64,000 nucleotides of DNA. It comes from Candidatus Enterousia sp. GTDB lineage: Bacteria > Pseudomonadota > Alphaproteobacteria > Rs-D84. The stretch is taken from positions 1,457-65,456 of the forward strand of contig JAZNAO010000006.1 in the NCBI GenBank assembly GCA_045586565.1, given 5' to 3'. The notes below the pieces were generated by a model that saw only the letters and a list, made by a program, of their open reading frames with translations, did not search any database and was not told the origin of the DNA. A program made the position numbers and the translations under genes. Positions 15,752 to 53,567 of this stretch are shown here, in pieces; within the stretch, counting starts at the first letter, position 1, and the number at the start of each line of letters is the position of its first letter.

Positions 15752-15752
15752 A

Positions 15753-17069: not shown

Positions 17070-17089
17070 AATGTGGTATAAGTAATAAC

Positions 17090-17617
17090 ATGAAAATAAA
17101 ATGTGAATTTTGTAAAACAGAATATAATATAGACAGACCGCCATTGACGCCGGTTAAATGTGCGTTGTGTGGGTATACGTGGCGCGTTGCGGCACCGGCG
17201 CGCAAGAACGTATGGTTGATGTTTTTTGCGTCTGTCTGTGCATTATTGTCTGCGATAATTTTTTCTATTGCGGTTATTGCTCATCACCAGGCTATTCATG
17301 CGAACCGTGGTCCATTGATTGCATCTGTGTCTGGGGTTGAAACCGCGACTGATGATACTGGTGTTTCGCATGTAATTGTCAGTGGTTCTGTGACAAATGT
17401 ATCGGATGCGATATATGGTGTGCCTGACTTGATAATTGTTGCGACGGACGATAATGGGAATGTTTTATCGCGCCAGAAATTTATGCCATCGGCCACATTA
17501 CTTGATTCTGGGGCGGTTGTGAATTTTAAACACACACTGGCGCCATTGCCGTCTGGCGTGACTAAGATATCCGCACATTTGGGCGAAATGGAAATACCAT
17601 CGGGGGAAGAACAATGA
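17090..17617 (+). CDS. Zinc-ribbon plus transmembrane protein (DUF3426-like).
   Basis: N-terminal CEFCKTEYN...CALCGYTW zinc ribbon, a transmembrane segment, then a periplasmic domain. Confidence 0.5.
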   Translation: MKIKCEFCKTEYNIDRPPLTPVKCALCGYTWRVAAPARKNVWLMFFASVCALLSAIIFSIAVIAHHQAIHANRGPLIASVSGVETATDDTGVSHVIVSGSVTNVSDAIYGVPDLIIVATDDNGNVLSRQKFMPSATLLDSGAVVNFKHTLAPLPSGVTKISAHLGEMEIPSGEEQ

Positions 17618-18072
17618 AAAAATTTATATTTGCATTGATTGGTTTGGCTTTATCTGCACCGTCATTTGCGGCAGACACGCCTGCGCCCGCGCGCATCAGT
17701 ATTTTTTCCACCAGCACTGATTGGCAGGCAGTTACTGGTCTGCGTCTGAACGAATATAATGGCACGTTTATTCCAGACAAGAAATTGGTTGGTCGTGGTC
17801 TGGTTTTGTATTACCTGGATGGGTTTCCGTGTTATGGGTTGGGGTATGGTGTTCGCGCGTGGGTTGGCCCAGACTTTAATCATGAACATTTGCATATTGC
17901 GTGTGTTGCGGCACCCACAGAAATTAAGTTTGCATACCGCAACGCCACCCGTGATGCAGACCAGGCGACAACCACAGGAATTTTGACATGTCCGGTTGAA
18001 GGCGACGGTCGTGAATTGACAATCCGTTTGTCTGATTGTACGGTTGGCCCTGATTGGGATGAATACAGATAA
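17614..18072 (+). CDS. Hypothetical secreted protein.
   Basis: Signal peptide MKKFIFALIGLALSAPSFAA. ATGA overlap with the upstream gene. Confidence 0.45.
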   Translation: MKKFIFALIGLALSAPSFAADTPAPARISIFSTSTDWQAVTGLRLNEYNGTFIPDKKLVGRGLVLYYLDGFPCYGLGYGVRAWVGPDFNHEHLHIACVAAPTEIKFAYRNATRDADQATTTGILTCPVEGDGRELTIRLSDCTVGPDWDEYR

Positions 18073-19117: not shown

Positions 19118-22100
19118 ATGTCATTTCTCAAAAATACAGTAAGTTTATTGGCGGTTTTCTGCGTTGTTCCGGCGGCTTTTGGTGCCACGGCGCGCCCCAG
19201 TGTTTTAAACACTGCGACGGCGGTTTCGGCAACTGGTGCGGTTCGTCGTGTGGCGATGCCAACGATGACATCGTATATCACTGGCTCGGCGGGTGGTGTT
19301 ACAAACAACAATAATGGCAACTCTGGTTCCAGCAACTTATTAGACAGCATTGAATGCATCGATGCATACACCGAATGTATCAAATCCGAAGATGTGTGCG
19401 GCGAAGATTTGTCAGAATGCACAACAAACGTATTGTTCCATGGCAAAATGCCCCAGTGTGTAAGCACCCTGGCCCAATGTGAACCGGATGGGGTTGATGC
19501 ATTATTTGGCACAAAGAATGTAACCGATTTGTCGTTCTATGATTCAAATAATTCTGCGGAATATGATGCCGAAGATGGTGAGGTTATTCGTTACACATAC
19601 CCAACAGACGGCAGTGTTCTGGGGCAAATGATTATATCTGCGGCGATTGAAAATCAGTATGATACACAAACATGCGTGAAACGTTATATGTCATGCTTGA
19701 ATAAAGACAGTGTTTGTGGTGCAGACTTTGAATTATGTACCGACGAACGTGAATTTAAAAAGCAGGCATTGTTCTGTGATTCAACCCTGGCCCGTTGCCA
19801 GGCAGACGGTGTTCGCGAATTATTCGGGGTTTCAAAATGGTCGCCACATAAAATGGGTGCGGATGGCAAAATCGAAGGTTCTTCCCGTGTTGGTGTGGCA
19901 ATCAAAGACGGTGCAGATTTGGCGGCGTTGAACGCGGTTTCTACCTGTTACAAGGTTGTTGAACAGTGTTTCTTGGGCGCATGTTCGGCCAATCCGTTGC
20001 GTTGTTTGGCGGGGTCGAATTTATCGACATTGACGGCGGCAAATGATATTGCGGCGGACGGTATCACAATCACATTGTCAAATGACAGTGCGCCATCAAC
20101 CCCAACAGACGTAAATCGTTATCTGCGCACATCGTGCCAGGATACAATTGGTGCAAATAAATTCTGTCACATGACATTCTTGGGCAAAAATCCAAGTAAG
20201 AAAGACTTGGCGGATGTAGATGTCCAATCAGAAGTCTTTGACGATGCAATCAGCGAACGTAAAAAATACGTTGAATCAAAAATCCAAGATTTGATGACAC
20301 AGTTCGATAAACGTGCCAAGGATAAATGTGTTGAAACAATTCGTTCATGCGCAATGCGTTCCTGTGGCGAAGGTGTCGGTTCTGTATGTTATTCATCTGT
20401 ATATGGCGCGAATGGCGGAAATACAATTGCGGGTCCGGCCACACGTCCAGATATCAAAACGGCATGTGAATCTGTTGTAAATACCGATGTGAATTGCCAA
20501 TATGCATATTCAACTGTTATAGATAATGGTGTGTATTCATACAATTACATCCAAAATTCTGTATTTGATACATTATTCCCAGAATATGCTGCCGACAAAA
20601 CAAACAATGATCCAATCGGTGTAATCGGGTCGTTAAATTCGTCCCTGTCGACCAGTTATAATGCCGCTGCTCTGGCGCAAATGAAGAAGCAATGTCAATC
20701 TGTCGCGACCAGCTGTGTTAAATCAATGTGTGGCACGGATTACCAGAATTGCTATCGCAATCGAACAGATATCTTGTCTGATTTGACCAATACGGATAAT
20801 GCAAAGTTTGATACGTCAATGAACAAGGTTGGTGGTGTTCTGGATTATACAATTGTATTGGGATTGTGCATGAACACGGTTAAAAACGCCGATGTATGTG
20901 ATGAACACCTGAAAATCCAAAAGGCCAAATTAGATTTGGAAAAGACAACGGAAAATGTATGGGGAACACAATCGTCTGTCCGTGATGGCTGGATTGATGC
21001 TGGTGGTGCCAAGAAGTTTGAAGAAGGGATGGTTCATTCCAAAGACGAAAATGGTGCCGATTTATGCACAAATGCTGCAGGGGACCAAGGTGTTTGCTAT
21101 GACGTTGATGCCAATGGTGATGTTTTTAATAAACCTGTGATGATATCTGCAGACCTGTATAAAACGAACCAGGCCACAACATCATTATTCCGTGAATTGT
21201 TGGTTGATTTAGAATACGAAGCCCAGGCGAAGTATAACGCCAAATTGACGAAACAACAGAATATGTGTCTGGCGGCAAATTCTGGTGGTGTTGTTGGCGC
21301 TGGCGATATGGGTTCAACATTCATGTGGGCAAAATTGAAAAGGGGCAAGGTTCCGGCCGATTATTCAATGAATGGTTTAACCAGTGACCAAATTGTCCCA
21401 AGTAATGAATTGTATGGTTCATTCTGCCGTGTGCGTGTGACACTGCAATCCACAGACCCAACCGTATCTGAATGGTTAAACAGTACCGAAGGTCAGAAAT
21501 ATGCAACGCGTTATTTTGCGGCGGGTGATGCATTTACATGCGGTTCATGGATACCTGTTGGCGATGAAGGAACATGCCATGACGATACCGCCGCGGGCAT
21601 CAGAAGATGCAAAGGTGGCTCAGGATTACGTGGCCTGGCGCAAAAGGTTGGCGAAGCCACATATACATACGACAAACAGAAATCCGACACAATTCTGCAA
21701 ACAATGTTGCCAGTGGTTGGATTGCTGGGTGGTGGTATTGGTGGTGCATATCTGGGCGCCGGCATCGAAGACGGTTCTGTATTCGGCGGTCTGACGGGTA
21801 AAAAGAGCACAAAATCAGACAGCAAGACAGCAAAGACTGCAAACGATAGATGTTCGAATGCCATCGATATGGCCAAAACAAAATTAGCGGAAGCAAATCC
21901 TAGCCTGGAAAGTGTAAGAAGTTTAGCCAAAACAGCGGCTGATGAATTAGAAGACATGGACAAGGTTGTGTACAAAAACCTGGAGTATTGGCCAGATGGT
22001 ATGACAACTACTGTTACTGAAACTATTTCTAAAGGAGAAGGGGAGCAAACTAAATATTATTGTGGCGGGACAGAAGTCAATACGAAAGTACCAGCACGGT

Positions 22101-22432
22101 GCGTTGGTGATAAGTTATTGGCCGATGCAAGAACAGAAATCACACCCATTTTGAATAGACTAGAAGGTTATTGTGAATCTGCGGTCGAAGACGAAGATGC
22201 CAATGCTAAAAAGAAAAAGGGTGCCGCCGCCGCGGGGGCTGTGACAACCGGTGTGATCAGCAGTGTTCTGACATGGGGCGTCACACGCAGCATCATTGAT
22301 GCACAACGCACCAAAGAACAACAGGCCGCAATTGATGAATTCATGGATTCATTGGGTTCAAAAATCAATTGTGTTGTCGGTGGGGATTCCATTGCGGTAT
22401 ATGGCGACACATTGGTCACCAGTATGGAATAA
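19118..22432 (+). CDS. Giant secreted Cys-rich repeat protein (1104 aa) with a C-terminal Gly-rich hydrophobic anchor.
   Basis: Signal peptide. Tandem ~50-aa Cys modules (C-x6-C-x6-CG-x4-EC ... C-x5-C-E/Q-xDGV-x-LFG, seen twice near the N-terminus). Further C-x6-C-x3-CG modules. C-terminal GGGIGGAYLGAGIEDG and AAAAGAVTTGVISSVLTWGV segments. Confidence 0.65.
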   Translation: MSFLKNTVSLLAVFCVVPAAFGATARPSVLNTATAVSATGAVRRVAMPTMTSYITGSAGGVTNNNNGNSGSSNLLDSIECIDAYTECIKSEDVCGEDLSECTTNVLFHGKMPQCVSTLAQCEPDGVDALFGTKNVTDLSFYDSNNSAEYDAEDGEVIRYTYPTDGSVLGQMIISAAIENQYDTQTCVKRYMSCLNKDSVCGADFELCTDEREFKKQALFCDSTLARCQADGVRELFGVSKWSPHKMGADGKIEGSSRVGVAIKDGADLAALNAVSTCYKVVEQCFLGACSANPLRCLAGSNLSTLTAANDIAADGITITLSNDSAPSTPTDVNRYLRTSCQDTIGANKFCHMTFLGKNPSKKDLADVDVQSEVFDDAISERKKYVESKIQDLMTQFDKRAKDKCVETIRSCAMRSCGEGVGSVCYSSVYGANGGNTIAGPATRPDIKTACESVVNTDVNCQYAYSTVIDNGVYSYNYIQNSVFDTLFPEYAADKTNNDPIGVIGSLNSSLSTSYNAAALAQMKKQCQSVATSCVKSMCGTDYQNCYRNRTDILSDLTNTDNAKFDTSMNKVGGVLDYTIVLGLCMNTVKNADVCDEHLKIQKAKLDLEKTTENVWGTQSSVRDGWIDAGGAKKFEEGMVHSKDENGADLCTNAAGDQGVCYDVDANGDVFNKPVMISADLYKTNQATTSLFRELLVDLEYEAQAKYNAKLTKQQNMCLAANSGGVVGAGDMGSTFMWAKLKRGKVPADYSMNGLTSDQIVPSNELYGSFCRVRVTLQSTDPTVSEWLNSTEGQKYATRYFAAGDAFTCGSWIPVGDEGTCHDDTAAGIRRCKGGSGLRGLAQKVGEATYTYDKQKSDTILQTMLPVVGLLGGGIGGAYLGAGIEDGSVFGGLTGKKSTKSDSKTAKTANDRCSNAIDMAKTKLAEANPSLESVRSLAKTAADELEDMDKVVYKNLEYWPDGMTTTVTETISKGEGEQTKYYCGGTEVNTKVPARCVGDKLLADARTEITPILNRLEGYCESAVEDEDANAKKKKGAAAAGAVTTGVISSVLTWGVTRSIIDAQRTKEQQAAIDEFMDSLGSKINCVVGGDSIAVYGDTLVTSME

Positions 22433-23521: not shown

Positions 23522-25591
23522 GTGAATTTAATGCCAGAAAATCTTAACAACGAACAAAAGAAAGCCGTTGAAACGACGTCTGGCCCATTGTTGGTGCTGT
23601 CAGGTGCAGGAACCGGTAAAACACGCGTGCTGACCACACGTATTGCATACATATTAAATTGTGGTCTGGCCCAACCGTGGCAGGTTTTGGCCCTGACCTT
23701 TACGAACAAGGCTGCAAACGAAATGAAAAATCGTCTGGCCGATTTGTCGGATGGTGCGTGGTATTCTGGTGACATTTGGTGTGGTACGTTTCATTCGATA
23801 TGCCTGAGAATTTTGCGCAGTAATGCCGAACGTGCGGGATTACGCCGTGACTTTATAATCTTTGGCGAAGACGACCAGAAATCAGTTATCAAATCATTGT
23901 TGTCGTCATCAACCAAGACACCTGGCGATTATGTTGAAGAATTTTCTGCGATAAAAGACAAAGGCCTGATTGCGTTAAAAAATACCGATAAATTATTCAA
24001 TGCATATAACGCGGAATTGACACGATTAAACGCGGTGGACTTTGGTGATATTATTTTAAAAGTCTTGGAATTATTTGATAAAAATCCAGACATATTGTCG
24101 CGCTATCAAAATCAGTTTAAATATATCTTGGTTGATGAATTCCAAGATACTAATAATGCCCAGATGGAATTTCTGTGCATGTTGACACGCGGTATTGATG
24201 TGCCAAATATTTGTTGCGTTGGTGATGATGATCAATCAATTTATTCATGGCGCGGTGCAGAAATAAAACACATATTAAATTTTGAAAAAACATTCCCAGA
24301 CGCGCAAATAATCCGCCTGGAAACTAATTATCGCAGTACGGCAAATATTCTGGGCGTGGCAAATTCTTTAATCCGACATAATGCAGGGCGCCTTGGCAAA
24401 GATTTGCGCGCCACAGATACAGGACCGGGCGAACCTGTATATGTTTTAACATTGCCGGGCGATCGGGATGAGGCGCGCATTATCGCCGATGCAATATTGC
24501 GCGATGATACAAACGATTTTACAAAATATGCATTACTTATCCGTGCCGGCAGTCTATCGCGTATATTCGAAGAAGAATTTGCAGCACGTGGTATTCCATA
24601 CAAACTAATCGGTGCGACAAAATTCTATGACCGTATGGAAATACGTGATGCGATTGCATATTTGCGCCTGTTGGTATATCCGTTTGATGATATATCTTTC
24701 CTGCGTGTGATTGCAAAGCCACGTCGTGGATTCGGGGACAAGGCAATTGAAAAATTGCGTGCATCTGGCACGAATTTAATGACGGGATTACGTAATGCTG
24801 CGCTGGCGCCTAAGTTGCGCGCGGCGGCGGATGAATTTTTATCTGCATTTGATTTTGATTGGGCGGCGATGCCACCACGTGATGCGGCGCAAAAATTGTT
24901 AAATGATTCTGGCTATATGAAAATGTGGGCAGATTCCAAAGATGTCGATGCCCCCGACAGAATTGCAAATATTCGCGAACTGTTGACGGCGGTAATTTCC
25001 AAATATGACACCATCCCAGAATTCTTGGAACAGGCCGCATTAATGATGACCGATGATAATGATTCCACCGACAATCCGCAAAATAATAACACGGTCAGTA
25101 TTATGACTATACACGCGGCCAAGGGGCTGGAATTTGATACGGTGTTTTTGCCTGCCTGGGAAGAAGGTATTTTTCCAAATGACAAGGCAATAAACGAAGG
25201 CGCCATCGAAGAAGAACGTCGCCTGGCATACGTGGCAATAACGCGTGCACGCCGTCGTTGTATTATATCAAATGCCATGTCGCGTATGGTGTTTGGTTCG
25301 CGTCAGTATAATTGCCCCAGTCGTTTTATCACGGAAATGGATAATAAGTTTTTAGATTTCCAGGGTGGTGCCCCGCGAACATATTCGCCATACACACATA
25401 TATCACGTTCGTATGACCCCGCGCCAAAACCGCGCCCAACAAAATCCGCCACAATGGTTGGCAAATTGGTCACGCACAATGAAATGGGGTCTGGTGTTGT
25501 CATCGAAGACAGTGGCACAATTTTAACAGTCGCATTTAAATCGCGTGGCATAAAAAAAGTCGCCCGTGATTTTGTGAAAACAATTGGATAA
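23522..25591 (+). CDS. uvrD: ATP-dependent DNA helicase of the UvrD/PcrA/Rep family.
   Basis: Walker A LSGAGTGKT; UvrD helicase motifs throughout 689 aa. Could equally be labelled pcrA. Confidence 0.9.
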   Translation: MNLMPENLNNEQKKAVETTSGPLLVLSGAGTGKTRVLTTRIAYILNCGLAQPWQVLALTFTNKAANEMKNRLADLSDGAWYSGDIWCGTFHSICLRILRSNAERAGLRRDFIIFGEDDQKSVIKSLLSSSTKTPGDYVEEFSAIKDKGLIALKNTDKLFNAYNAELTRLNAVDFGDIILKVLELFDKNPDILSRYQNQFKYILVDEFQDTNNAQMEFLCMLTRGIDVPNICCVGDDDQSIYSWRGAEIKHILNFEKTFPDAQIIRLETNYRSTANILGVANSLIRHNAGRLGKDLRATDTGPGEPVYVLTLPGDRDEARIIADAILRDDTNDFTKYALLIRAGSLSRIFEEEFAARGIPYKLIGATKFYDRMEIRDAIAYLRLLVYPFDDISFLRVIAKPRRGFGDKAIEKLRASGTNLMTGLRNAALAPKLRAAADEFLSAFDFDWAAMPPRDAAQKLLNDSGYMKMWADSKDVDAPDRIANIRELLTAVISKYDTIPEFLEQAALMMTDDNDSTDNPQNNNTVSIMTIHAAKGLEFDTVFLPAWEEGIFPNDKAINEGAIEEERRLAYVAITRARRRCIISNAMSRMVFGSRQYNCPSRFITEMDNKFLDFQGGAPRTYSPYTHISRSYDPAPKPRPTKSATMVGKLVTHNEMGSGVVIEDSGTILTVAFKSRGIKKVARDFVKTIG

Positions 25592-25595
25592 AAAA

Positions 25596-25620
25596 ACGGC
25601 ATGACGCCGTTTTTTTATTT
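25596..25620. terminator. Bidirectional terminator between uvrD and the convergent membrane-protein operon.
   Basis: AACGGCATGACGCCGTT followed by a T tract. Confidence 0.6.
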
Positions 25621-26910
25621 GCGTGATTCTTTGATAATTTTATACCATTCTTTGACAGACTTTTTTGCATCGCCCCATAATCTGGTCACGTCTGATTTTA
25701 ATGATGTGCCCATTGAAGAATCTATTGCGCCACCTATGTCTGTTGCAATTTGTGATGCATGACTGGCCAGATACCATGTCAACGCCATCACAAACATAGA
25801 TGTCCATATATTTGGATTATCAAATTCTGGCACCAACCCAGGATTTGTTAAATCCATAACGCCCGATAATAATGCTGTGCAAATTGCAATAACAATTGAC
25901 AATGTGACAAAGTGCAGGGCTGCATTGATAAAACGCATAATTTGTGCCTGTAAAGATTCTGTGGAAAATAACTTTACAAAACCATTATAAATATCACCAA
26001 CAATTCCCTTGTATGATGTTTGGCCCACGCACTCTGCAATTGCAGTAAAAGGCAACATTATAATCCCCAAGAATAAATCTGCAATTACACCAAATGCAAC
26101 AAATGCAAATTTCCATGCCAGATATATAAACCCACCAATCATTGCGCCACCACACAGGAATGAAAACATACTGCGTCCGATACCGTATGCCATCCATTTC
26201 CATCCAACCGCCACCGCCGTATAACAAAATCCGGATAATCGTGTTGGAATACACATAATGTTTGCTGCGGCTTCTGGGGGCAATAAATTAGATTCAGATA
26301 TATGTTCTGTGGCATACATATGAATCGCTGTGCATGTGTCTGGGATTTGTGCGCCTGCAACACTGGCTACTGCATTTAAAATTAAATCAGATATCAGTGA
26401 TGCAACGCTTAAAATTGGACTCATCACCATCATAAATGTTTCTGCCGGTCCGACATTTAACACCACCACCCACATTGCGGTTATTGCGCCTTTTTTCAGC
26501 ATTGATTTTATTGTGTCTTTAGTGTCGGCTTTGCCGGTGATTATATTATATGCCTCTAACCCCATCCAGAATGCATACATCAATATGATAAATATGATTG
26601 TAAACCGAACCAATGACGAATCCAGTATATGCCCGATATGTGAAAACGCATTCATAAATGCCAGACCGATTTTCGCTTCTATTGGGACAAACCCCACATC
26701 AAAATTTTGTATTGTATTTCCGTGAAATTTTTCAAAATCCCCAGACAGTTGCCCTATAAACAATTCTCGGTTTGCTTCCGTGGTCCATACCCCATTATCA
26801 CCGATATCTGGTAACGGTACATTTGTTTCGCCAAATGCCGGCACCGCCATAACCGTTGCGATTGCAACAAGTGCTAAATACCTACAAAGATGTTTAAATA
26901 CCTTTATCAT
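25615..26910 (-). CDS. VirB6/TrbL-like polytopic membrane protein, paralog 4 of the operon.
   Basis: Signal peptide and at least five transmembrane segments. Shared C...GW.M block with the neighbouring paralogs. ATGA overlap with the upstream gene. Confidence 0.45.
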   Translation of the reverse strand: MIKVFKHLCRYLALVAIATVMAVPAFGETNVPLPDIGDNGVWTTEANRELFIGQLSGDFEKFHGNTIQNFDVGFVPIEAKIGLAFMNAFSHIGHILDSSLVRFTIIFIILMYAFWMGLEAYNIITGKADTKDTIKSMLKKGAITAMWVVVLNVGPAETFMMVMSPILSVASLISDLILNAVASVAGAQIPDTCTAIHMYATEHISESNLLPPEAAANIMCIPTRLSGFCYTAVAVGWKWMAYGIGRSMFSFLCGGAMIGGFIYLAWKFAFVAFGVIADLFLGIIMLPFTAIAECVGQTSYKGIVGDIYNGFVKLFSTESLQAQIMRFINAALHFVTLSIVIAICTALLSGVMDLTNPGLVPEFDNPNIWTSMFVMALTWYLASHASQIATDIGGAIDSSMGTSLKSDVTRLWGDAKKSVKEWYKIIKESRK

Positions 26911-28352
26911 TTATTTGTCACCACATCTGCAATTGTATCTGTAATTTTTAATGGCGCACGCCCAGTTGTTTTTATCAAATCACCTGTCCATTTACCAAAA
27001 TCAAACAATTCTGGACTGTCTTTGCCCAACATCTTGTCAATCTTTGGGCTGATTGCATAAAAGTACAAGAAGAACAAACATGCCATCATCAACAAGAAAT
27101 CCCATCCATCATCCATAAAATTAAATGCGTTTGGATACTTTCTTTCAACTTCTGCCTTGCGTGCGGTAAAGCAATTTTTAAATTTATCTTTGTCCATTTC
27201 GCCATCTACCAAAGCAACCTGTTCACATGTTGTAAACACATTCATTACAGATAATGTTTGTGCGTCTGGATTTTCGGCATGCATACCCATCATTGGTGGT
27301 AATATTGCCGTATATCCATCATTTGGTCCTGGGAAAAACGCATCTGCGGTGTATGATACCGTCGCGTATATCACCAATGTTTTCAATGTAATGGCGATAA
27401 TTCTTACTGCTGATGTAACCAGCATATTTATTGCATTCCCCAATAACCCATTTGCCTTGGCCCAGACGCCTTCGAACGCATATGATGCCAATAACAGTGG
27501 CAAAAATATAACCAAGAATACCAGTTTAAATACCACAGATAATATTTGAAAAAACAAATCAAAACCAATCAGCAAGAACATCAATACCAATGCCAATCCT
27601 GCGACCCACGTAAACGCACCGCCACCCATACCCATCCAAGAATAATTCATCAGTGAAAATCCGCCTGCGGCACCTGCCAGCATTACACTGTTTATATTTC
27701 CAACAACGCACATAAATGGTTGCAGTATTGGATTTAAAATATCATTTTCGTTTTCAGAATATTTATCATTTCTCAAATTGCATTGTGCAGAATCACTGAT
27801 ACCTGTGGCGGCCATTGATAATTCTGCCCCAAGATACATAACTGGTGTAATTGTTAGTTGTGATACTGTCTTTAAAGCGCCTGTGCCGCCCATCCCCAGC
27901 ATTCCCATTACTGCACCAACAATCAGCACACGTGCACCCTGTTTCCAGATTTTGTCGACCAGCGCATTTATTTCCAATTTCTTTTCTGTGTCGTCTAACT
28001 TCATGGCTTCTTTTGCAGAATTTAACATATGCTGAACAATACTGATGACAATAAACAACCCAAATCCCAACACCATCAATATCCAAATATTGTTTACCAT
28101 TAAATTCCAGAATTTGTCGGCTGCATTCCCGATGACTGTGAACAAATCAGAAATATATCTGCACATAAAACATCCGTTGACGTTTGAAATATTCCCGTCA
28201 GTTGCCCCCACGGCCGTTAAAAAGTTATCCAAACTGGTATACGTAATGGATGTACCGCCCAAAGATGACGACAAATACCATATCCCCAGCCCTAATGCGG
28301 CGATGATAAAGAATGCTTTGATGGCCATAACAATCAATTTTGCCTTTAACAT
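26907..28352 (-). CDS. VirB6/TrbL-like polytopic membrane protein, paralog 3.
   Basis: N-terminal GCFMCRYISDLF motif homologous to SCWSCPIFDRLF and SCWTCQMFSDIM in the other paralogs. Multiple transmembrane segments. Confidence 0.45.
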   Translation of the reverse strand: MLKAKLIVMAIKAFFIIAALGLGIWYLSSSLGGTSITYTSLDNFLTAVGATDGNISNVNGCFMCRYISDLFTVIGNAADKFWNLMVNNIWILMVLGFGLFIVISIVQHMLNSAKEAMKLDDTEKKLEINALVDKIWKQGARVLIVGAVMGMLGMGGTGALKTVSQLTITPVMYLGAELSMAATGISDSAQCNLRNDKYSENENDILNPILQPFMCVVGNINSVMLAGAAGGFSLMNYSWMGMGGGAFTWVAGLALVLMFLLIGFDLFFQILSVVFKLVFLVIFLPLLLASYAFEGVWAKANGLLGNAINMLVTSAVRIIAITLKTLVIYATVSYTADAFFPGPNDGYTAILPPMMGMHAENPDAQTLSVMNVFTTCEQVALVDGEMDKDKFKNCFTARKAEVERKYPNAFNFMDDGWDFLLMMACLFFLYFYAISPKIDKMLGKDSPELFDFGKWTGDLIKTTGRAPLKITDTIADVVTNK

Positions 28353-29542
28353 TACTTACCTTCCTTGTCGTCGTCTTTTTTTAGCACTATTTTTGCGGTA
28401 TTTGTAACCGCGCCCACCGCATTCTTGGTCAGCCCCATAATTGCATCTGCGACCTGTTCGCCATATTCTGTTTTTTCTGCGACACCAAATGCGTCCAGTA
28501 TCATTTTTGTAATCGCTTTGGATTGGTCGTAAATATAATTTAAAACGTAAATTAAAATACTGCAACTCATCAACGTCATGGATTCCAAATTTTCTGTATT
28601 CAAATCTGCGTTGTATAATTCACCTGTTGTAATTGCATTCATCAAATCGTTTACAGATACATCCGATGCACTAAAGAACTTGGCGATTACAACCATAATA
28701 ATCGTATACGTTATAACGATTGATCCCAAAGACACAATCGAATTTACCAAATTCTTTATTTGATTTATCCCGACCCCAGATCCCAATTTTTTTATCCATT
28801 CTGGTACATGTTCTGCGCCAGTGAACGCCATTGTCATCAATGATAGTGGGAAAAAGAATGCAAAGAACGCCATTGCAACAATTGCGTCTGCAAATCTGCA
28901 ACAATATCGGAAAAATAATTTTATAAATCCCCATGACAGATAAAATCCAATAAAGAACAACATGATATGCTTTAACAAACTGCCAATTCCGGTCAAAGCC
29001 TTCCATGAAAAAGCGTTATCTACGACCGCAATCCCCAGTTTTATATATGATTGGAATTGTGTGATTGTCGTCTGCATCAACAATAATATTTTATTACGCA
29101 GTTCTGGCCTAAAAAAACTATCATCTGTCATTTCTTTTGGGGTATATGGAACTTTTTCTTCGACCTGAACTGTATCCAGTTGGATTATGTTTTGTGTATA
29201 AACCGTTGTAACAGATGCAATGGGTTCGAATATTAGTGTAGATACCATTCGTGGTAATGTGACACCCGCCCCCAGCAGTCCGACAACAACAATCGAATTT
29301 AAAAATACTTTTTGTATGGATTTCTTAAAGAATAGGTCGTCCATCCCTTTTTGCATATTTTTCATCCATGCATTTGACACATACAATGCAAATAATGCAA
29401 TCAACAACATCAGACATAATTTTGCAAAATTATCATATATATACGCGGCTGCCAAAGACACAATCTGAAACAGACGGTCAAATATTGGACAACTCCAACA
29501 TTGGATTGAATTGTCTATCAAAGATGATGTCCATTCGTTCAT
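28352..29542 (-). CDS. VirB6/TrbL-like polytopic membrane protein, paralog 2.
   Basis: SCWSCPIFDRLFQIV and LPRMVSTLIFEPI blocks shared with the divergent paralog. Multiple transmembrane segments. Confidence 0.45.
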   Translation of the reverse strand: MNEWTSSLIDNSIQCWSCPIFDRLFQIVSLAAAYIYDNFAKLCLMLLIALFALYVSNAWMKNMQKGMDDLFFKKSIQKVFLNSIVVVGLLGAGVTLPRMVSTLIFEPIASVTTVYTQNIIQLDTVQVEEKVPYTPKEMTDDSFFRPELRNKILLLMQTTITQFQSYIKLGIAVVDNAFSWKALTGIGSLLKHIMLFFIGFYLSWGFIKLFFRYCCRFADAIVAMAFFAFFFPLSLMTMAFTGAEHVPEWIKKLGSGVGINQIKNLVNSIVSLGSIVITYTIIMVVIAKFFSASDVSVNDLMNAITTGELYNADLNTENLESMTLMSCSILIYVLNYIYDQSKAITKMILDAFGVAEKTEYGEQVADAIMGLTKNAVGAVTNTAKIVLKKDDDKEGK

Positions 29543-30801
29543 TTCTTTTTAAACCATCCCAATGCGCTATTAAATGCGCTGGTTGTTTGTTTGATACCTT
29601 TCCACATTGTTGTGGCGTCACCATTGACCTGTCTATACAGTTTATCCATACCGCCACCGATATAATTTTCCAGTTGCTTTTGTGTCATCTGATAGATTTT
29701 ATACATCAAAAAGAATGTCAATATTGCCGACATCCATGTGACAGAATGTGTTCCAAATCCAATTGCATTTACAACTTCTGGTGTGGGCAGATTGCTGTAT
29801 GCGCTGCCCCCGGCGGCAGAAACAAATACCGAAGAATTCCATCGGAACAGTGCTTTGATTACCGCCAAATTGATGCACAGTATAAACGCACATGCAATCA
29901 TAGTGATAATCAATTGTTGTAACGCCTTGGTAATACCGCTGAATGCGGGCCAAACATCGAACCATTTATCACTGGACTTGGTCACGTATGTCAGCACATA
30001 GAACGGATATAAAATCAGTTGTACACCGAAATTAAATATTCCCTGTATAATCAGCATTGCCATAAACAGGTTACTGCCGATAAATGTGATTATTAGAATA
30101 ATCCCGGTCAATACATTCATTAAATCTTCGCCACCATGTGGAATCAATGTCAACAGCCCGCGCAATCCACGTGTCAAGAAATCAAATCCGCGTTTTATAA
30201 TCTGGTTGTTTGCGTGTGATAAATCAGATATTGGTTGCACTAAAAATTCGCATGATTCCGGATTCAACCACGCTTTTTCTGTAATGCTGGTTGGGCAATC
30301 TATTTTTTGTGCGTTGGTTCCTGTTTCGTTGATTGTCTGTGTTATTTCATGAGTATATACCGACCCCAGTTTTAAAAAAGGATTTACCAACCACTGCGTC
30401 AAGAACATCGGTGACAGTTGTAATAAAAATACAATTGCGATAAATGCGCGAAATCCAGGTTTTAGAACTTTTGTTGCGATGTCCATTGGACCGGCTTTGC
30501 CATCAGCGATTTCACCGCCCCCCGATATGTTAAAGAACGCCAGCACTTCTTTCGGGGCAAACATTTTTAACAGTCCGATTACAATAGTTATAACGAAAAA
30601 TAATATAACCAATCCTTGAATAATTCCGTTGCCCACAAAAAATTCATATCCGCCCGTGGCAACCATCATCAGCGCATCCAATATCATCGGCACAAAAGGT
30701 GCCAAATTTAATGCGTCAACAATATCTGCATGTGCGGCCCCTGGTGCGCAGAAAACCGCGACAAAACATAAGGCTGATAATATTTTTTTTAGTATATTCA
30801 T
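29539..30801 (-). CDS. VirB6/TrbL-like polytopic membrane protein, paralog 1 (first gene of the operon).
   Basis: Signal peptide MNILKKILSALCFVAVFCAPGAAHA, at least six transmembrane segments. ATGA overlap with the downstream gene. Confidence 0.4.
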   Translation of the reverse strand: MNILKKILSALCFVAVFCAPGAAHADIVDALNLAPFVPMILDALMMVATGGYEFFVGNGIIQGLVILFFVITIVIGLLKMFAPKEVLAFFNISGGGEIADGKAGPMDIATKVLKPGFRAFIAIVFLLQLSPMFLTQWLVNPFLKLGSVYTHEITQTINETGTNAQKIDCPTSITEKAWLNPESCEFLVQPISDLSHANNQIIKRGFDFLTRGLRGLLTLIPHGGEDLMNVLTGIILIITFIGSNLFMAMLIIQGIFNFGVQLILYPFYVLTYVTKSSDKWFDVWPAFSGITKALQQLIITMIACAFILCINLAVIKALFRWNSSVFVSAAGGSAYSNLPTPEVVNAIGFGTHSVTWMSAILTFFLMYKIYQMTQKQLENYIGGGMDKLYRQVNGDATTMWKGIKQTTSAFNSALGWFKKK

Positions 30802-30868
30802 TCTCTCTTTTTATTTTTATCTTTTCAATTATATCACATTTAATGCAAAATATGGTATACTTAAAAAC

Positions 30869-32159
30869 AATGAATTGGTTAAAAAAATTTTGGATAATGT
30901 TTTTGTCCTTTCTGCCGATTGGGGCAGGGGCGGTTGCGCCATTTGTGATAAAGGGGTTGATTGGTGCGACGGCGGTTGCTGGATTTTCCATATATCGCAA
31001 TATGTCGCCTGTAAATATGGCAGACGCATTGGAATTTTTTTCATCGTGTTGGACGTGTCAGATGTTTTCAGACATTATGGCAACAATGTCGAATATATTG
31101 CCCCCTATATATGACGGTTTGGGTGGCGCGATAATTCCGTTTGCGATAATTCTGACGGCGGTATGGTTTGCGTGGCAGATTGTCAGTGATCATATGAATG
31201 CCAAAACGCCAGAAGCATGGTCTTTTACAACAAAATTTAGCACGCATTTAATAAAATTGACAGCGGTGTGTGCACTGCTGGCGGCGCCAATTCCGCGCAT
31301 GGTGACCCAAATTGCGATTGAACCGATATTTAATGTTGGTTTATCACTAAATCGATTGGTGGCGCATGACGATAGTTTTGATTCGTGTGTTGTGTCGACT
31401 GCCTTGGTTGATCCAACATCAGACAGTGCAGATGCGGCCAATTCTGGGGTGTTTTCGCCAAAGTTACGTCATAATTTAACATGTGAATTGGCGGGTGTGC
31501 ATCAAATGACAGGTCTGGGGATGACCGTTGGGTGGACAATGTTAAATATGTCATTCGATTCGGAATATATGCATAAAATTATGTGGGCTATCCCGATTTT
31601 TCCGAACGTGATACTGTTTGTTGCGGGCGCATTGATTGTGGGGTTATTTTTCTTGGCTTTGCTGCCGATACCATTGTATTTCTTAGAAATATTCATAAAG
31701 CTATCATTGGATATGGTGATGTTACCACTGATGTTGTTGGGTTGGTTGTTTGATGGATGGGCAATATCCCTCAAAGGGGCAGGTAAAACGATTCGTTCTA
31801 TTATTGATGACGTGATAAATGGGACGCTGGGGTTGGCGGTGACGGGTGTATTTGTATCATTTGCGATAATGTTTTTGAATGCGATATTCGGTGATTGGAA
31901 TGGTGCATCTGTTTTATCGACTGCATTGACCCAAAATGATTCGAAAATTTTGATAGACGCCTTGATGATGCGCAATGACAGTTTGGTTACTATAATTCTG
32001 ATGGGATTGTTTATGGCTGCGTTTATGACAATGATTCCTGCCCTGGCGAAGTCTTTGTTTAGCATAACTATATCCACAGAATTCTATGATTCGGCAAAAA
32101 AGAACCTTGATACACTGTGGAAAGGCTTGAAAAACGTATACGCACAAATAAAAAAATAA
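30869..32159 (+). CDS. VirB6/TrbL-like polytopic membrane protein, divergent paralog 5.
   Basis: Start chosen at MNWLKKFWIMFLSF (ATG at 30869) rather than the ORF-track start at 30699, which overlaps the divergent gene. SCWTCQMFSD and IPRMVTQIAIEPI blocks. Confidence 0.45.
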
Positions 32160-32226: not shown

Positions 32227-32736
32227 ATGACAAAGTTTCCGATTCTTTATTGGTCACGCAGAACCGCTGGGGACAGCGAATATCAGTTGGCGCGCAAGGT
32301 TATAAATAATGCCACGGGTGTTATGCCGGACGTGTTGACTGATGATATTGATATTGCGGCGATATTGGCGCAAAATCCAAATGCGACGATTTACTATCCT
32401 GTGTTTTGCGGTTCAACAGGTTGGTGGGGTGAATTATTGGGGTGTGATGCGGTTGTCGTTGATAAAATGATAATATCCCCCGAATGTCAATTGATGGTTA
32501 TCGAATCGCAAAAAAATGCCAAACCGCGTGGCACGAATCAGTTATTGGCGGCTGAAATTTACCCGACCAGTGGTTTTTTCAAGAAAATGAATTCTGGGAT
32601 TGCGACGGTTGCAGATATGTTGGCGACGGACGCCGGGACAATATTGGCATTATTCTCTGGCAAGAATCAGAATCAGTTTATAAATGTATTGGAATCGACG
32701 GGCAATTCATATCTGGGATGCATTGGTCGATATTAA
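32227..32736 (+). CDS. Hypothetical protein (169 aa).
   Basis: ORF only. Confidence 0.35.
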   Translation: MTKFPILYWSRRTAGDSEYQLARKVINNATGVMPDVLTDDIDIAAILAQNPNATIYYPVFCGSTGWWGELLGCDAVVVDKMIISPECQLMVIESQKNAKPRGTNQLLAAEIYPTSGFFKKMNSGIATVADMLATDAGTILALFSGKNQNQFINVLESTGNSYLGCIGRY

Positions 32737-34090: not shown

Positions 34091-34358
34091 ACATTTGTCG
34101 GTGGGATTTTTCACCGATGGGGTGTGGAAACCCGTTATCTAAGCGTCTATGCACGATTGCATAACGCGCCAATGGCGTGTTTTTTGTGCAGTGTATGGAT
34201 GAAAATTTTTTTCTCCTGATCTTATGTGGTCAGGAGGGCTGCGAATATATTGAATAAGCACACAATTCTTAGATATTGTTTCCAACCTCCTGGCCACCTA
34301 TCTTTTATGGTGGTTTTTGTTTAATTTGCGTATGCAGAACGAAAGGGAGGAAAGTAAT
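34091..34358 (+). promoter_or_regulatory. Conserved structured 5' leader L1 (candidate riboswitch or attenuator).
   Basis: P1 TCGGTG/CACCGA, P2 GGGT/ACCC, hairpin CTCCTGA/TCAGGAG (34213-34237), antiterminator GTGGTCAGGAGG pairing with CCTCCTGGCCAC, terminator CCACC-9nt-GGTGG followed by TTTTT (34294-34318), ribosome-binding site GAAAGGGAGG. Confidence 0.6.
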
Positions 34359-35102
34359 ATGCAAAAATTTTTAAAACTAACCGGCGTATCAGTTTTGGCA
34401 ATCGTTGCCGCAACGGGCGCCAATGCCGCGGGATACACCTGTGAAGAATTGATTGAATACACAGCATGTAATGATGGGTGGTATTTAAACGATGGTGATT
34501 GTATAGAAAGCACAACATGTCCATCGGGCAGTTATTTACGTCCGTTTTGTTCAGTGAGCGATTGTGGTGTGAGTTATGATTCTGAGACCGAAGAATATAC
34601 TTGTTGTGATGGTGATTATGTTGCAAACCTGGAATGCATACAATGCCCATCTGTTGGTCTGACTGACAAAGACGGCAAAGTGGTGTCGGTTAAATCACAG
34701 CCTGGCTCAATGGGTGTTGGTTCGTGCTATATTGACCCGAATGCATATTTCAAGGATAGCACGGGGACATATCATTATAAGTCCAATTGTTCTGTGCGTT
34801 TCTGGGAAACATCCCCAGACACAGAAGAAGAATGTACCAGTCTTGGTTTTGAATGGGTATATACAAGTGGTGAATCAGATTCTTATTATGTTTGTGCGTT
34901 GAACATGCGGATTAGTGAACAGTTGGGTTTAATAAAGACAGAAGAAGAATGTAACGCGGCAGCTGAAAAAATATATGGCTTGGTATGGAAAGATGAAGGA
35001 GATTATTATTATTCCAGATGCGAAACCATAAACTACGAAGAGAGTTACTTTATTTTTAGGGATGAATGGTATGTTTTTGGTGATCCTATTTCTCACTCCT
35101 AA
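34359..35102 (+). CDS. Secreted Cys-rich repeat protein, paralog 1 (248 aa).
   Basis: Signal peptide MQKFLKLTGVSVLAIVAATGANA. AGYTCEELIEYTACNDGWYLNDGDCI is near-identical to paralog 3. CxxCP..GLTDKDG module; 20 Cys. Confidence 0.8.
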   Translation: MQKFLKLTGVSVLAIVAATGANAAGYTCEELIEYTACNDGWYLNDGDCIESTTCPSGSYLRPFCSVSDCGVSYDSETEEYTCCDGDYVANLECIQCPSVGLTDKDGKVVSVKSQPGSMGVGSCYIDPNAYFKDSTGTYHYKSNCSVRFWETSPDTEEECTSLGFEWVYTSGESDSYYVCALNMRISEQLGLIKTEEECNAAAEKIYGLVWKDEGDYYYSRCETINYEESYFIFRDEWYVFGDPISHS

Positions 35103-53327: not shown

Positions 53328-53567
53328 CCTTTTGTCGGTGAGATTTTTCACCGATGGGGTGTAACGACCCGTGCGATAGCGTCTGTGCGATATTTGCGCC
53401 CAGATGAAATTACTCCTGATCTATTCGTGGTCAGGAGGGCTTGTGAATAATGCGTCCGCGCAAAATCAACAGCACAATTCTATCGATTGTCGTTAACCTC
53501 CTGACCACCTGACTTATAAAACGGTGGTTTTTATTTGATAAAACGCAAAGGAAAGGGAGAGTTTTAT
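53328..53567 (+). promoter_or_regulatory. Conserved structured 5' leader L2, the divergent copy.
   Basis: Same helix set as L1 and L3 with different loops. P1 TCGGTG/CACCGA, hairpin CTCCTGA-tctattcg-TGGTCAGGAG, perfect 12-bp antiterminator GTGGTCAGGAGG/CCTCCTGACCAC, terminator CCACC...GGTGG followed by TTTTT (53504-53534), ribosome-binding site GGAAAGGGAG. Confidence 0.6.

What the first reader, a model, noticed from the sequence alone, without database searches (positions are those of the whole stretch)
25615..32159. Array of five paralogous polytopic membrane proteins (VirB6/TrbL-like?) - four translationally coupled plus one divergent - with no VirB3/VirB4 nearby
Four minus-strand genes (29539-30801, 28352-29542, 26907-28352, 25615-26910) are joined by 4-nt, 1-nt and 4-nt start/stop overlaps. 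A fifth paralog (30869-32159) is transcribed divergently from a 67-bp AT-rich spacer. All have a signal or first transmembrane segment plus 5-7 further transmembrane segments. They share blocks such as SCWSCPIFDRLF / SCWTCQMFSDIM / GCFMCRYISDLF and LPRMVSTLIFEPI / IPRMVTQIAIEPI. Tandem multi-copy polytopic paralogs of this size are a hallmark of the virB6 arrays of Rickettsiales type IV secretion systems. Here they are shorter (396-481 aa) and not adjacent to virB3/virB4, so the assignment is tentative. They could be a different expanded membrane-protein family.
Basis: inference. Interest (0 to 1): 0.55.

Follow-up and report, generated by a model that had tools for sequence, protein, structure and literature searches.

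The report
Five-paralog VirB6-like membrane gene array
A tiny-genome gut bacterium (Candidatus Enterousia) keeps five very divergent copies of VirB6, the inner-membrane base of type IV secretion machines, as one conserved gene set; standard domain searches miss them, and the count of five matches the five-fold ring VirB6 forms in the one solved machine.

Summary
Five genes sit at 25615-32159: four minus-strand genes joined by 4/1/4-nt overlaps, and one divergent gene whose true start is 30870, not 30869. Pfam and NCBIfam find nothing in any of them, and pairwise BLAST is near noise. All five ortholog-group profiles match one hub family at 98.9-100% HHalign probability. That hub matches canonical VirB6 (TrwI/TraD) at 95%, E 2.5e-8. 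About half of the hub members hit Pfam TrbL. An AlphaFold model of protein E (pLDDT 79) finds only R388 TrwI/VirB6 chains in the PDB (probability 1.00, TM 0.51-0.60). Reversed-sequence and unrelated-membrane-protein controls score 2% or less. The five-gene set is syntenic in 80 of 80 Enterousia-like genomes. Similar arrays (five members in three complete arrays, fewer in others) occur in at least eight other uncultured lineages, none next to VirB4. No other T4SS gene lies in the 64-kb window. A conserved, solitary VirD4 coupling protein does exist in the genus, 1.6-6 kb from the array in four species. Best reading: subunits of a hetero-oligomeric, possibly heteropentameric, VirB6 platform of a scattered, derived T4SS. 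This is a new variant of a known kind.

The parts
25585..25621 (.). Bidirectional intrinsic-terminator-like hairpin between uvrD (ends 25591) and gene D (ends 25615). It marks the 3' end of the A-B-C-D operon.
   Evidence: 16-pair and 14-pair stems on both strands, each flanked by T-runs.
25615..26910 (-). Gene D, 431 aa. VirB6-like paralog with a signal-peptide-like N-terminus, no CxxC, and an invariant Cys pair C193/C220.
   Evidence: ORF. HHalign to hub A3 99.3%, E 2e-20. Orthologs in 75 loci. Cys conservation.
26907..28352 (-). Gene C, 481 aa. VirB6-like paralog with an N-terminal transmembrane anchor, the motif GCFMCRYI (C61/C64 invariant), and further invariant Cys pairs.
   Evidence: HHalign to A3 99.2%, E 1e-19. 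Cys conservation. Its stop overlaps the D start by 4 nt.
28352..29542 (-). Gene B, 396 aa. VirB6-like paralog that begins directly with QCWSCPIF (C15/C18 invariant) and has no N-terminal signal.
   Evidence: HHalign B-E 96.9% and to A3 99.7%. B orthologs are retrieved by the E profile at library-wide E values of 1e-12 to 1e-5.
29539..30801 (-). Gene A, 420 aa. First gene of the operon and a VirB6-like paralog, with a signal peptide (..AAHA|D), no CxxC, and an invariant C169/C184 pair.
   Evidence: HHalign A-D 95.4% and to A3 98.9%, E 2e-17. Cys conservation.
30802..30869 (.). AT-rich divergent intergenic region, with sigma-70-like hexamers on both strands.
   Evidence: Sequence. Promoter-like sites at 30828-30800 (minus) and 30833-30861 (plus). 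These are consensus matches only.
30870..32159 (+). Gene E, 429 aa (alternative start 30843 gives 438 aa). It is the paralog closest to the family hub, with SCWTCQMF (C60/C63 invariant) and a C173/C205 pair.
   Evidence: HHalign to A3 100%, E 4e-47. AF2 pLDDT 78.8. Foldseek top five hits are all TrwI/VirB6.

Best explanation
The five genes encode anciently diverged members of the VirB6/TrbL superfamily. They belong to a subfamily that current Pfam and NCBIfam models do not recognise. Its marks are a CxxC motif just before the first long helix in three of the five (B, C, E), invariant cysteine pairs in the central loop in A, C, D and E, and the VirB6 core 'G..(L/F)P(L/F)..' helix pair.

I infer that the five are non-redundant subunits that assemble together in the inner membrane as a hetero-oligomeric VirB6-type platform. 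The most economical form is a 1:1:1:1:1 heteropentamer, mirroring the VirB6 homopentamer at the base of the R388 T4SS stalk. I further infer that this platform serves a highly derived type IV secretion-type machine whose other genes are scattered around the genome, as in Rickettsiales. The conserved solitary VirD4 coupling ATPase of the genus would deliver substrates to it. In a bacterium of under 1 Mb that probably depends on a partner, such a machine would most plausibly mediate exchange with other cells.

Shown: the homology, the fold, the conservation, the coupling of the four operon genes, and the presence of VirD4 in the genus. Inferred: co-assembly, stoichiometry, a working T4SS, and the substrate.
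For: Homology:
- Five profiles versus hub A3: 98.9-100%.
- Hub versus canonical VirB6 alignment A5: 95.2%, E 2.5e-8, 276 columns.
- Reversed-sequence and MraY/FtsW/ComEC controls: 2.2% or less.
- Pfam TrbL hits in 24 of 60 remote relatives and 10 of 21 hub members (best 1.2e-8 and 1.7e-8). One hub member hits TIGR02783 TrbL_P.
- The TrbL core maps consistently onto E residues ~230-345, and the 'LxP(L/F)' core aligns with TrwI.

Fold: AF2 of E has pLDDT 78.8 and pTM 0.72. The Foldseek top five are all TrwI/VirB6 chains at probability 1.00 and TM 0.51-0.60, while the next hits have probability 0.25 or less. The same result came from the poorer first model.

Non-redundancy:
- The set is strictly syntenic in 80 of 80 loci, with each gene a 1:1 ortholog.
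- The 4-nt and 1-nt overlaps are conserved across species.
- Complete arrays of five occur in three other lineages (L081, L082, L089).
- L089 shows the type order E-?-B-C-D.

Link to T4SS:
- A VirD4/TraG-type coupling protein (PF02534, 2.2e-50) lies 1.6-6 kb from the array in four species.
- At least 120 orthologous clusters at 74-100% identity are annotated as VirD4.
- One assembly (JAZTWM01) carries both the array (L035) and VirD4 (L095).
- Some remote relatives fuse a Peptidase_M23 or VgrG3-C domain, predicted cell-wall hydrolases, in front of the VirB6-like domain. That resembles a VirB1-VirB6 fusion.

Literature: VirB6 is a pentamer in the R388 stalk (PMC9259494). Rickettsia has five rvhB6 paralogs and Ehrlichia four, and how they are used is an open question (PMC8035066). 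VirB6 homologs are generally predicted to be pentamers (PMC12857230).
Against: - None of the five reaches any Pfam or NCBIfam model. Direct profile comparison of each with canonical VirB6 fails, at 2.2% or less. The link is transitive only.
- Foldseek E-values are modest (0.015-0.12).
- No VirB2, VirB3, VirB4, VirB5 or VirB8-B11 gene was seen in the 64-kb window, in the flanks of the 80 array loci, or within 10 kb of VirD4 in 82 loci. Together that is only about a tenth of a genome, and the single-sequence searches used were insensitive.
- The paper on these genomes mentions no secretion system (PMC12306168).
- In eight other lineages the arrays are also never next to VirB4.
- Some complete arrays have four members, not five (L084, L090).
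- Gene E has its own promoter region, so equimolar expression is not guaranteed.
- No multimer modelling or co-evolution test was possible.
Confidence: 0.6

Rival explanations
1. The five are alternative VirB6 variants. Each forms its own homo-oligomer and is used with a different substrate, partner cell or condition. They are interchangeable modules rather than one complex.
For: This possibility is explicitly left open for the Rickettsia RvhB6 paralogs (PMC8035066). Gene E is transcribed separately from A-D. Array size varies between lineages, from three to five.
Against: Four of the five are translationally coupled by 1-nt and 4-nt overlaps, conserved across 80 species. That favours co-expression at fixed ratios. 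No lineage in 80 has lost or duplicated any one member. The five differ systematically in N-terminal features, namely signal peptide versus CxxC. That looks like specialised positions rather than variants of one role.
Confidence: 0.2
2. This is a VirB6-derived but T4SS-independent machine. The arrays, and in other lineages their conserved no-Pfam neighbours, would form a new envelope apparatus. It might serve cell-cell attachment or uptake in host-dependent bacteria. It would have kept only the VirB6 fold, and VirD4 would be unrelated to it.
For: Arrays in nine lineages are never adjacent to VirB4, VirB8-B11 or VirD4, apart from four Enterousia species. In six remote loci the array is followed by a conserved double-HTH_3 gene and three or four conserved genes with no Pfam hit. 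The family has no match in 72,556 plasmids. VirD4 is solitary among housekeeping genes.
Against: The VirB6 fold is known only from T4SSs (knowledge; PMC9259494, PMC12857230). A highly conserved chromosomal VirD4 needs some translocon to act on (inference). Scattered T4SS genes are normal in Rickettsiales (PMC8035066). The peptidoglycan-hydrolase fusions in relatives are typical of T4SS VirB1 functions (PMC12857230).
Confidence: 0.17
3. The similarity to VirB6 is an artefact of hydrophobic, helix-rich composition, and the five belong to an unrelated expanded membrane-protein family.
For: There are no direct Pfam or NCBIfam hits. The pairwise similarities are very weak. Direct comparison with canonical VirB6 fails.
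Against: Reversed alignments and three unrelated polytopic proteins from the same window score 2.2% or less. The true comparisons score 95-100% over 276-375 colinear columns. Independent Pfam TrbL hits in the relatives map to the same region. The fold search returns TrwI/VirB6 alone at probability 1.00.
Confidence: 0.03

Closest known systems
TrwI / VirB6 of the IncW (R388/R7K) conjugative T4SS, and TraD of IncN pKM101-type plasmids (Pfam PF04610 TrbL/VirB6)
   Same: Same fold: the Foldseek top hits are 8rtd_L, 8rt9_F and 7o3v_F/G/J at TM 0.51-0.60. Profile-profile homology through the hub family is 95.2%. The core 'G...LxP(L/F)...T' helix pair aligns. The N-terminus starts at the equivalent of helix alpha-1.
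   Different: There is no direct HMM match. The proteins are 50-140 residues longer. They carry a CxxC motif (B, C, E) and invariant loop cysteine pairs that canonical VirB6 lacks. There are five divergent copies instead of one. The genes are chromosomal and lie in a housekeeping context, not between virB5 and virB8 (versus 22, 86). The family is absent from known plasmids.
Rickettsiales rvhB6 / virB6 paralog arrays (five in Rickettsia, four in Ehrlichia and Anaplasma; the 'extended VirB6' subfamily)
   Same: Both are tandem arrays of four or five mutually very divergent VirB6 paralogs in a reduced-genome alphaproteobacterium with scattered T4SS genes (PMC8035066). [quoted passage not shown]
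   Different: The host is order Rs-D84, not Rickettsiales (PMC12306168). The proteins are short (396-481 aa). The array is not downstream of virB3-virB4, and one member is divergently transcribed.
TrbL of P-type (RP4-like) conjugation systems (TIGR02783)
   Same: One hub member hits TrbL_P weakly, at 4e-4. It belongs to the same superfamily.
   Different: The five window proteins give no hit. TrbL is a single-copy gene inside the trb operon.

Membership tests
TrbL/VirB6 (Pfam PF04610) | Direct match to the family HMM at or above the gathering score (25.9 bits) | tested here: not met
   None of the five hits PF04610 even at E<=1. NCBIfam is also empty. Among relatives, P0193 passes at 32.7 bits and P0166 gets 25.6 bits.
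TrbL/VirB6 (Pfam PF04610) | Profile-level homology to experimentally characterised VirB6 proteins | tested here: met
   The link is transitive. Each of A-E versus hub A3 scores 98.9-100%. A3 versus TrwI/TraD/Xylella VirB6 scores 95.2%, E 2.5e-8, over 276 columns. Controls score 2.2% or less. Direct comparison of A-E with VirB6 fails.
TrbL/VirB6 (Pfam PF04610) | VirB6 fold: a bundle of long, mostly hydrophobic alpha-helices as in TrwI | tested here: met
   Tested for E only. AF2 pLDDT is 78.8. The Foldseek top five are all TrwI/VirB6 at probability 1.00, TM 0.51-0.60 and E 0.015-0.12.
TrbL/VirB6 (Pfam PF04610) | Encoded within a T4SS gene cluster (next to virB3/B4/B5/B8) | tested here: not met
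   The window's large ORFs and the array's neighbours are all housekeeping or unknown. The flanks of the 80 array loci hold only a VirD4, and only in four species.
TrbL/VirB6 (Pfam PF04610) | Assembles as a pentamer at the inner membrane | not testable with these tools
   No multimer prediction was available. The count of five paralogs is only suggestive (PMC9259494).
Rickettsiales rvhB6-type paralog array | Four or five tandem, mutually divergent VirB6 paralogs | tested here: met
   There are five, at less than 25% pairwise identity.
Rickettsiales rvhB6-type paralog array | Array lies directly downstream of rvhB3-rvhB4 | tested here: not met
   The neighbours are uvrD on one side and a 169-aa ORF plus an inositol monophosphatase on the other.
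Rickettsiales rvhB6-type paralog array | Large N- or C-terminal extensions (proteins of about 600-1400 aa) | tested here: not met
   The window proteins are 396-481 aa. Extensions are present only in remote relatives of 600-1500 aa.
Rickettsiales rvhB6-type paralog array | Rest of the rvh T4SS present elsewhere in the genome | tested here: inconclusive
   VirD4 is found and conserved in the genus. VirB4 and VirB8-B11 were not found in the roughly 10% of the genome that could be read.
Rickettsiales rvhB6-type paralog array | Sequence orthology to RvhB6a-e | not tested

The most novel reading that the evidence does not exclude
These arrays define an unrecognised, widespread branch of the VirB6 superfamily found in uncultured, mostly small-genome bacteria. 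In this branch, gene duplication has turned the VirB6 homopentamer into a fixed heteropentamer, with one paralog per position. That asymmetric platform, together with a solitary VirD4 and partners that today's profiles do not detect, would form a minimal or radically remodelled T4SS-type machine. Episymbiotic or parasitic cells would use it to exchange macromolecules with their partner. The same logic would explain the five RvhB6 paralogs of Rickettsia.
Probability: 0.3. Interest if true: 0.8.

Novelty: new variant of a known kind. Interest (0 to 1): 0.62.

Why it matters
How Rickettsiales use their four or five divergent VirB6 paralogs is an acknowledged open question (PMC8035066). It became sharper once VirB6 was seen to form a five-fold ring (PMC9259494). 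Here an independent, non-Rickettsiales lineage carries a five-member VirB6-like set that is compact, translationally coupled and strictly conserved, and other uncultured lineages carry similar arrays. This gives hundreds of orthologous sets for interface co-evolution and multimer modelling of a putative heteropentamer. The proteins are short and lack the bulky extensions that hamper work on RvhB6.

The result also shows that a whole branch of the VirB6 superfamily is invisible to Pfam and NCBIfam. T4SS surveys of reduced-genome symbionts such as Rs-D84 are therefore likely to under-call secretion machinery. Finally, it gives Candidatus Enterousia, a prevalent gut bacterium with no known means of interacting with a host or partner cell, a concrete candidate apparatus in the VirB6-like set plus VirD4.

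Tried and rejected
- **Direct family scans.** Pfam and NCBIfam scans of the five proteins gave nothing.
- **PDB sequence searches.** Searches with E, with E's ortholog profile and with the raw remote alignment gave no meaningful hit. The hub profile found TrwI only at E 0.92.
- **First AF2 model.** It was built from 23 close orthologs and was poor (pLDDT 56). It was replaced by a model from 61 diverse sequences.
- **Hub-profile search of the 5.8-billion-protein index.** It returned only 7 hits because of the word filter. These gave no names or taxonomy.
- **Cluster look-ups.** They gave no source names. The window's own assembly could not be identified.
- **R388 accession BR000038.** It is not held. 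Canonical VirB6 sequences were obtained instead by tblastn with a TrwI fragment.
- **Plasmid search.** tblastn of E and of P0161 against plasmids gave no match.
- **Literature on Rs-D84 or Enterousia secretion.** None was found. No supplements are held, and the 2023 Enterousia paper is not held. No paper pairs 'VirB6' with 'heteropentamer'.
- **Search for VirB genes with R7K proteins.** phmmer with the R7K VirB proteins against all fetched loci found no VirB1-B11. It recovered only 6 of 80 known VirD4 genes, so this negative result is weak.
- **Mapping paralog types across lineages.** Assigning arrays in other lineages to types A-E worked only for L089. Elsewhere the scores do not discriminate.
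- **Rejected ideas.** A Bartonella Trw-type amplification or a plasmid or ICE origin is rejected because the context is housekeeping and there are no plasmid matches. An artefact of transmembrane composition is rejected by the controls.


Full report
**What is in the sequence**

The region holds five long ORFs. Four are on the minus strand: A 29539-30801 (420 aa), B 28352-29542 (396 aa), C 26907-28352 (481 aa) and D 25615-26910 (431 aa). They are joined by ATGA, TAATG and ATGA junctions, that is 4-, 1- and 4-nt overlaps.

The fifth gene, E, is divergent. The in-frame ATG is at 30870 (429 aa). A public protein identical to E starts at 30843 (438 aa). The spacer is AT-rich and has promoter-like hexamers on both strands. 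A strong bidirectional hairpin at 25585-25621 separates gene D from a convergent uvrD gene.

The quoted motif blocks are real but are not shared by all five. The CxxC block is in B, C and E. A and D instead have signal-peptide-like N-termini. B has neither a signal peptide nor an N-terminal transmembrane segment.

**Organism and conservation**

Homologs of E are 'hypothetical proteins' of gut and rumen alphaproteobacterial MAGs. A scan of one genome per species returned 80 loci, most of them labelled Candidatus Enterousia or Alphaproteobacteria bacterium. Enterousia is placed in GTDB order Rs-D84. Its genomes are below 1 Mb and it probably depends on a partner (PMC12306168; taxonomy).

In every locus not truncated by a contig end, the arrangement D-C-B-A|E is identical. 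Each gene is a 1:1 ortholog at 44-78% identity. The overlapping junctions are conserved. A/B has a 4-nt overlap in 49 loci and a 1-nt overlap in 8. B/C has 1 nt in 53 and 4 nt in 16. C/D has 1 nt in 34 and 4 nt in 12. The remainder are gaps of a few bases. These are therefore real core genes under constraint, and four of them are translationally coupled.

**Are they paralogs?**

Pairwise BLAST is barely above noise. Profiles built from the roughly 80 orthologs of each gene do better. B-E scores 96.9%, A-D 95.4%, C-D 91.4% and D-E 89%, over about 145-340 colinear columns, but other pairs are weak.

The decisive step was a hub family. An HMM of E, searched against 1.84 billion representative proteins, gave 197 hits. 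These included B orthologs at library-wide E values of 1e-12 to 1e-5, C-like proteins, and many 400-1500-aa proteins from other organisms. I built a 21-sequence alignment of the shared domain of those foreign proteins (A3). It aligns to all five ortholog profiles as follows:

| Profile | HHalign probability |
|---|---|
| A | 98.9% |
| B | 99.7% |
| C | 99.2% |
| D | 99.3% |
| E | 100% |

E-values range from 2e-17 to 4e-47, over 330-375 columns. Reversed alignments, and MraY, FtsW and ComEC from the same window, score 2.2% or less. The five are therefore homologous and very old paralogs.

**What family?**

Pfam and NCBIfam give nothing for the five. Four independent lines connect them to VirB6/TrbL.

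1. *Pfam hits in relatives.* 24 of 60 remote relatives and 10 of 21 hub members hit PF04610 TrbL (best 1.2e-8 and 1.7e-8). One hits TIGR02783 TrbL_P. In three relatives the TrbL core (model positions ~80-190) falls on the region that aligns to E residues ~230-345.
2. *Profile comparison with canonical VirB6.* I fetched canonical VirB6 genes from annotated conjugative plasmids. They were TrwI of IncW R7K, two IncN TraD-type genes and one from Xylella, each sitting between virB5/eex and virB8. The hub profile matches their alignment at 95.2%, E 2.5e-8, over 276 columns that span nearly the whole of VirB6. The reversed control scores 0.8%.
3. *Shared core motif.* The conserved core 'G..I....(L/F)P(L/F)....F..T' aligns residue for residue between A-E and TrwI.
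4. *Fold.* An AF2 model of E from a 61-sequence diverse alignment reaches pLDDT 78.8 and pTM 0.72. Its five best PDB matches are all TrwI/VirB6 chains of the R388 T4SS, at probability 1.00 and TM 0.51-0.60. Everything else has probability 0.25 or less, apart from further R388 stalk-complex chains (8rtd_H and 8rtd_I, probability 0.84-0.89). A poorer first model gave the same answer.

There are caveats. The link is transitive, because direct comparison of A-E with canonical VirB6 fails. Only E was modelled. The Foldseek E-values are modest.

**Features of the subfamily**

- CxxC (CW.CP.F in the hub) is invariant in B (C15/C18), C (C61/C64) and E (C60/C63).
- Invariant cysteine pairs lie in the central loop of A, C, D and E, matching the invariant cysteines of the hub.
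- In relatives, Peptidase_M23 and VgrG3-C domains (predicted cell-wall hydrolases) sit N-terminal to the CxxC, behind a signal sequence. The motif is therefore probably periplasmic. This is inference. It is consistent with the periplasmic N-terminus reported for Agrobacterium VirB6, which I state from my own knowledge.

**Arrays elsewhere**

Neighbourhoods of eight remote relatives, with GC content from 30% to 59%, show tandem arrays of the same family every time.

| Locus | Paralogs in the array | Notes |
|---|---|---|
| L081 | 5 | |
| L082 | 5 | |
| L089 | 5 | also joined by 4/4/1/4-nt overlaps |
| L084 | 4 | |
| L090 | 4 | |
| L091 | at least 4 | |
| L092 | 3-4 | |
| L096 | 3, plus one further weak-TrbL gene about 10 kb upstream | |
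| L093 | at least 3 | short contig |

In L089 the members score best against E, then none of the five types, then B, C and D, in that order. Enterousia's order would then differ only by an inversion of E. This hints that the five types predate the split between the lineages. The scores for B and D are close calls, so this is only suggestive.

A small two-transmembrane protein of 63-97 aa accompanies four arrays. In six loci a double-HTH_3 protein and several conserved genes with no Pfam hit follow the array. None of these neighbourhoods holds VirB4, VirB8-B11 or VirD4. The family has no match in 72,556 plasmids.

**Other T4SS parts**

The window's neighbours and all its large ORFs are housekeeping or unknown:

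- NusA, IF2, PBP1A, ValS, GyrA, DnaX, ComEC and SLT;
- UvrD, a DnaQ-like exonuclease and IMPase.

I then screened ORFs in the 80 array loci that have no counterpart in the window. This turned up a 753-aa protein with PF02534 T4SS-DNA_transf (2.2e-50), TraG-D_C and TrwB_AAD_bind domains, that is a VirD4/TraG-type coupling protein (NCBIfam). It lies 1.6 kb from E in L010 and L023, and about 6 kb from E in L030 and L036. It is absent from the 64-kb window.

Its orthologs form at least 120 clusters at 74-100% identity, some annotated as VirD4. It is thus at least as conserved as the array. One assembly (JAZTWM01) has the array on contig 15 (L035) and VirD4 on contig 7 (L095).

VirD4 is always a solitary gene among housekeeping genes. 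This holds in 2 annotated loci and 80 metagenome loci. No VirB4 or VirB11 was seen there. However, only about a tenth of a genome could be read, and my single-sequence searches were insensitive, recovering only 6 of 80 VirD4 genes.

**Mechanism**

In the only complete T4SS structure, five VirB6 subunits form the membrane-embedded base of the stalk. That base carries a VirB5 pentamer and is proposed as the site where pilin is recruited and through which substrate passes (PMC9259494; PMC12857230). Rickettsia has five divergent rvhB6 genes and Ehrlichia four. Whether they co-assemble is an open question (PMC8035066).

The Enterousia set has five strictly conserved members, each 1:1 across species. 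Four are translationally coupled, and the five carry differentiated N-termini. The most economical reading is one hetero-oligomeric, probably pentameric, VirB6 platform working with the conserved VirD4 in a derived T4SS whose genes are scattered.

- *Shown:* homology, fold, conservation, coupling, and VirD4 in the genus.
- *Inferred:* co-assembly, stoichiometry, existence of the remaining machine, and its role in contact with partner cells.

The arrays of four members, and the separate promoter region of E, count against a strict 1:1:1:1:1 rule.

**Verdict**

This is not a textbook VirB6 locus. It is a branch of the VirB6 superfamily that Pfam cannot see, organised as multi-paralog arrays outside Rickettsiales and outside any recognisable T4SS operon. 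I rate it a new variant of a known kind and of moderate-to-high interest. It offers a tractable and widely sampled system for asking how multiple VirB6 paralogs are used. It also points to secretion-type machinery in a prevalent reduced-genome gut bacterium that had none described.

Noticed in passing
window 13174-18072 (+): Three tandem genes (452, 413 and 438 aa) have prepilin-like N-termini (..G|NFLMQALLAL, ..G|ASVLEVLLAM, ..GG|MLIELLLSVAL). None has a Pfam hit, and one has a weak GspI N-terminal hit. They are followed by a zinc-ribbon membrane protein and a 152-aa ORF. The same block sits next to dnaX in another Enterousia contig (L094). This may be a divergent type IV pilus or T2SS-like pseudopilin set.
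   Followed up: partly
L010:3999-6260(-), L023:12957-15206(-), L030:17352-19595(-), L036:17349-19592(-); L094, L095, L099-L178: A conserved, solitary VirD4/TraG-type coupling protein (~735-750 aa) is present across Enterousia-like genomes, always flanked by housekeeping genes. In four species it lies 1.6-6 kb from the VirB6-like array. It is absent from this 64-kb window.
   Followed up: yes
window 19118-22432, 34317-35102, 53535-55040, 55291-56376 (+): Several cysteine-rich, signal-peptide-bearing proteins have no Pfam or NCBIfam hit, including one of 1104 aa. Two of the three smaller ones (34317-35102 and 55291-56376) share a near-identical N-terminal block (..AAGYTCEELIEYT.CN.G.YLNDGDCI..); 53535-55040 has a more divergent version. 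This suggests a secreted or surface paralog family.
   Followed up: no
L082, L084, L090, L091, L092, L096 (downstream of the arrays): In the remote lineages each VirB6-like array is followed by a conserved protein with two HTH_3 domains. After it come a long low-complexity protein (~720-940 aa) and two or three more conserved genes with no Pfam hit. L092 also has a 329-aa T2SSE-family (VirB11/PilT-like) ATPase 6 kb away. This may be the rest of an undescribed system.
   Followed up: partly
L081:6361-6621, L082:9703-9996, L084:1614-1829, L090:1753-1944: A small protein of 63-97 aa with two hydrophobic segments sits immediately beside or inside four remote arrays. It resembles VirB2 or VirB3 in size and shape. 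No equivalent ORF fits in the compact Enterousia locus.
   Followed up: no
P0193 / L084:8310-12305 and P0211 / L090:7386-11879: Relatives of 1331-1497 aa fuse Peptidase_M23 N-terminal to the VirB6-like domain; P0193 also carries a VgrG3-like C-terminal domain. These look like natural fusions of a cell-wall hydrolase to VirB6.
   Followed up: partly
window 25585-25621: A perfect bidirectional terminator-like hairpin (AAAAAAACGGC-loop-GCCGTTTTTTT) is shared by the convergent uvrD gene and gene D.
   Followed up: no
window 5600-7546 (-) and 48727-49449 (+): ComEC (Pfam Competence, 9e-53) and a ComF-like phosphoribosyltransferase-type ORF (the latter read from the translation only) are present. 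Together with the pilin-like genes this suggests DNA-uptake capacity in this reduced genome.
   Followed up: no
window 61719-62465 and 62469-63212 (+): Two adjacent paralogous genes of 247-248 aa have similar N-termini (..ICGCITNKDARKRVRVVL.. and ..VCGFVPGKKARTRVRVFL..). Their function is unknown. This was seen only by reading the translations.
   Followed up: no
window 32227-32736 (+): A 169-aa ORF with no family hit lies directly downstream of E. It is conserved at that position in other Enterousia loci (for example L023:11359-11868 and L030:11368-11877). It could be co-transcribed with E.
   Followed up: no
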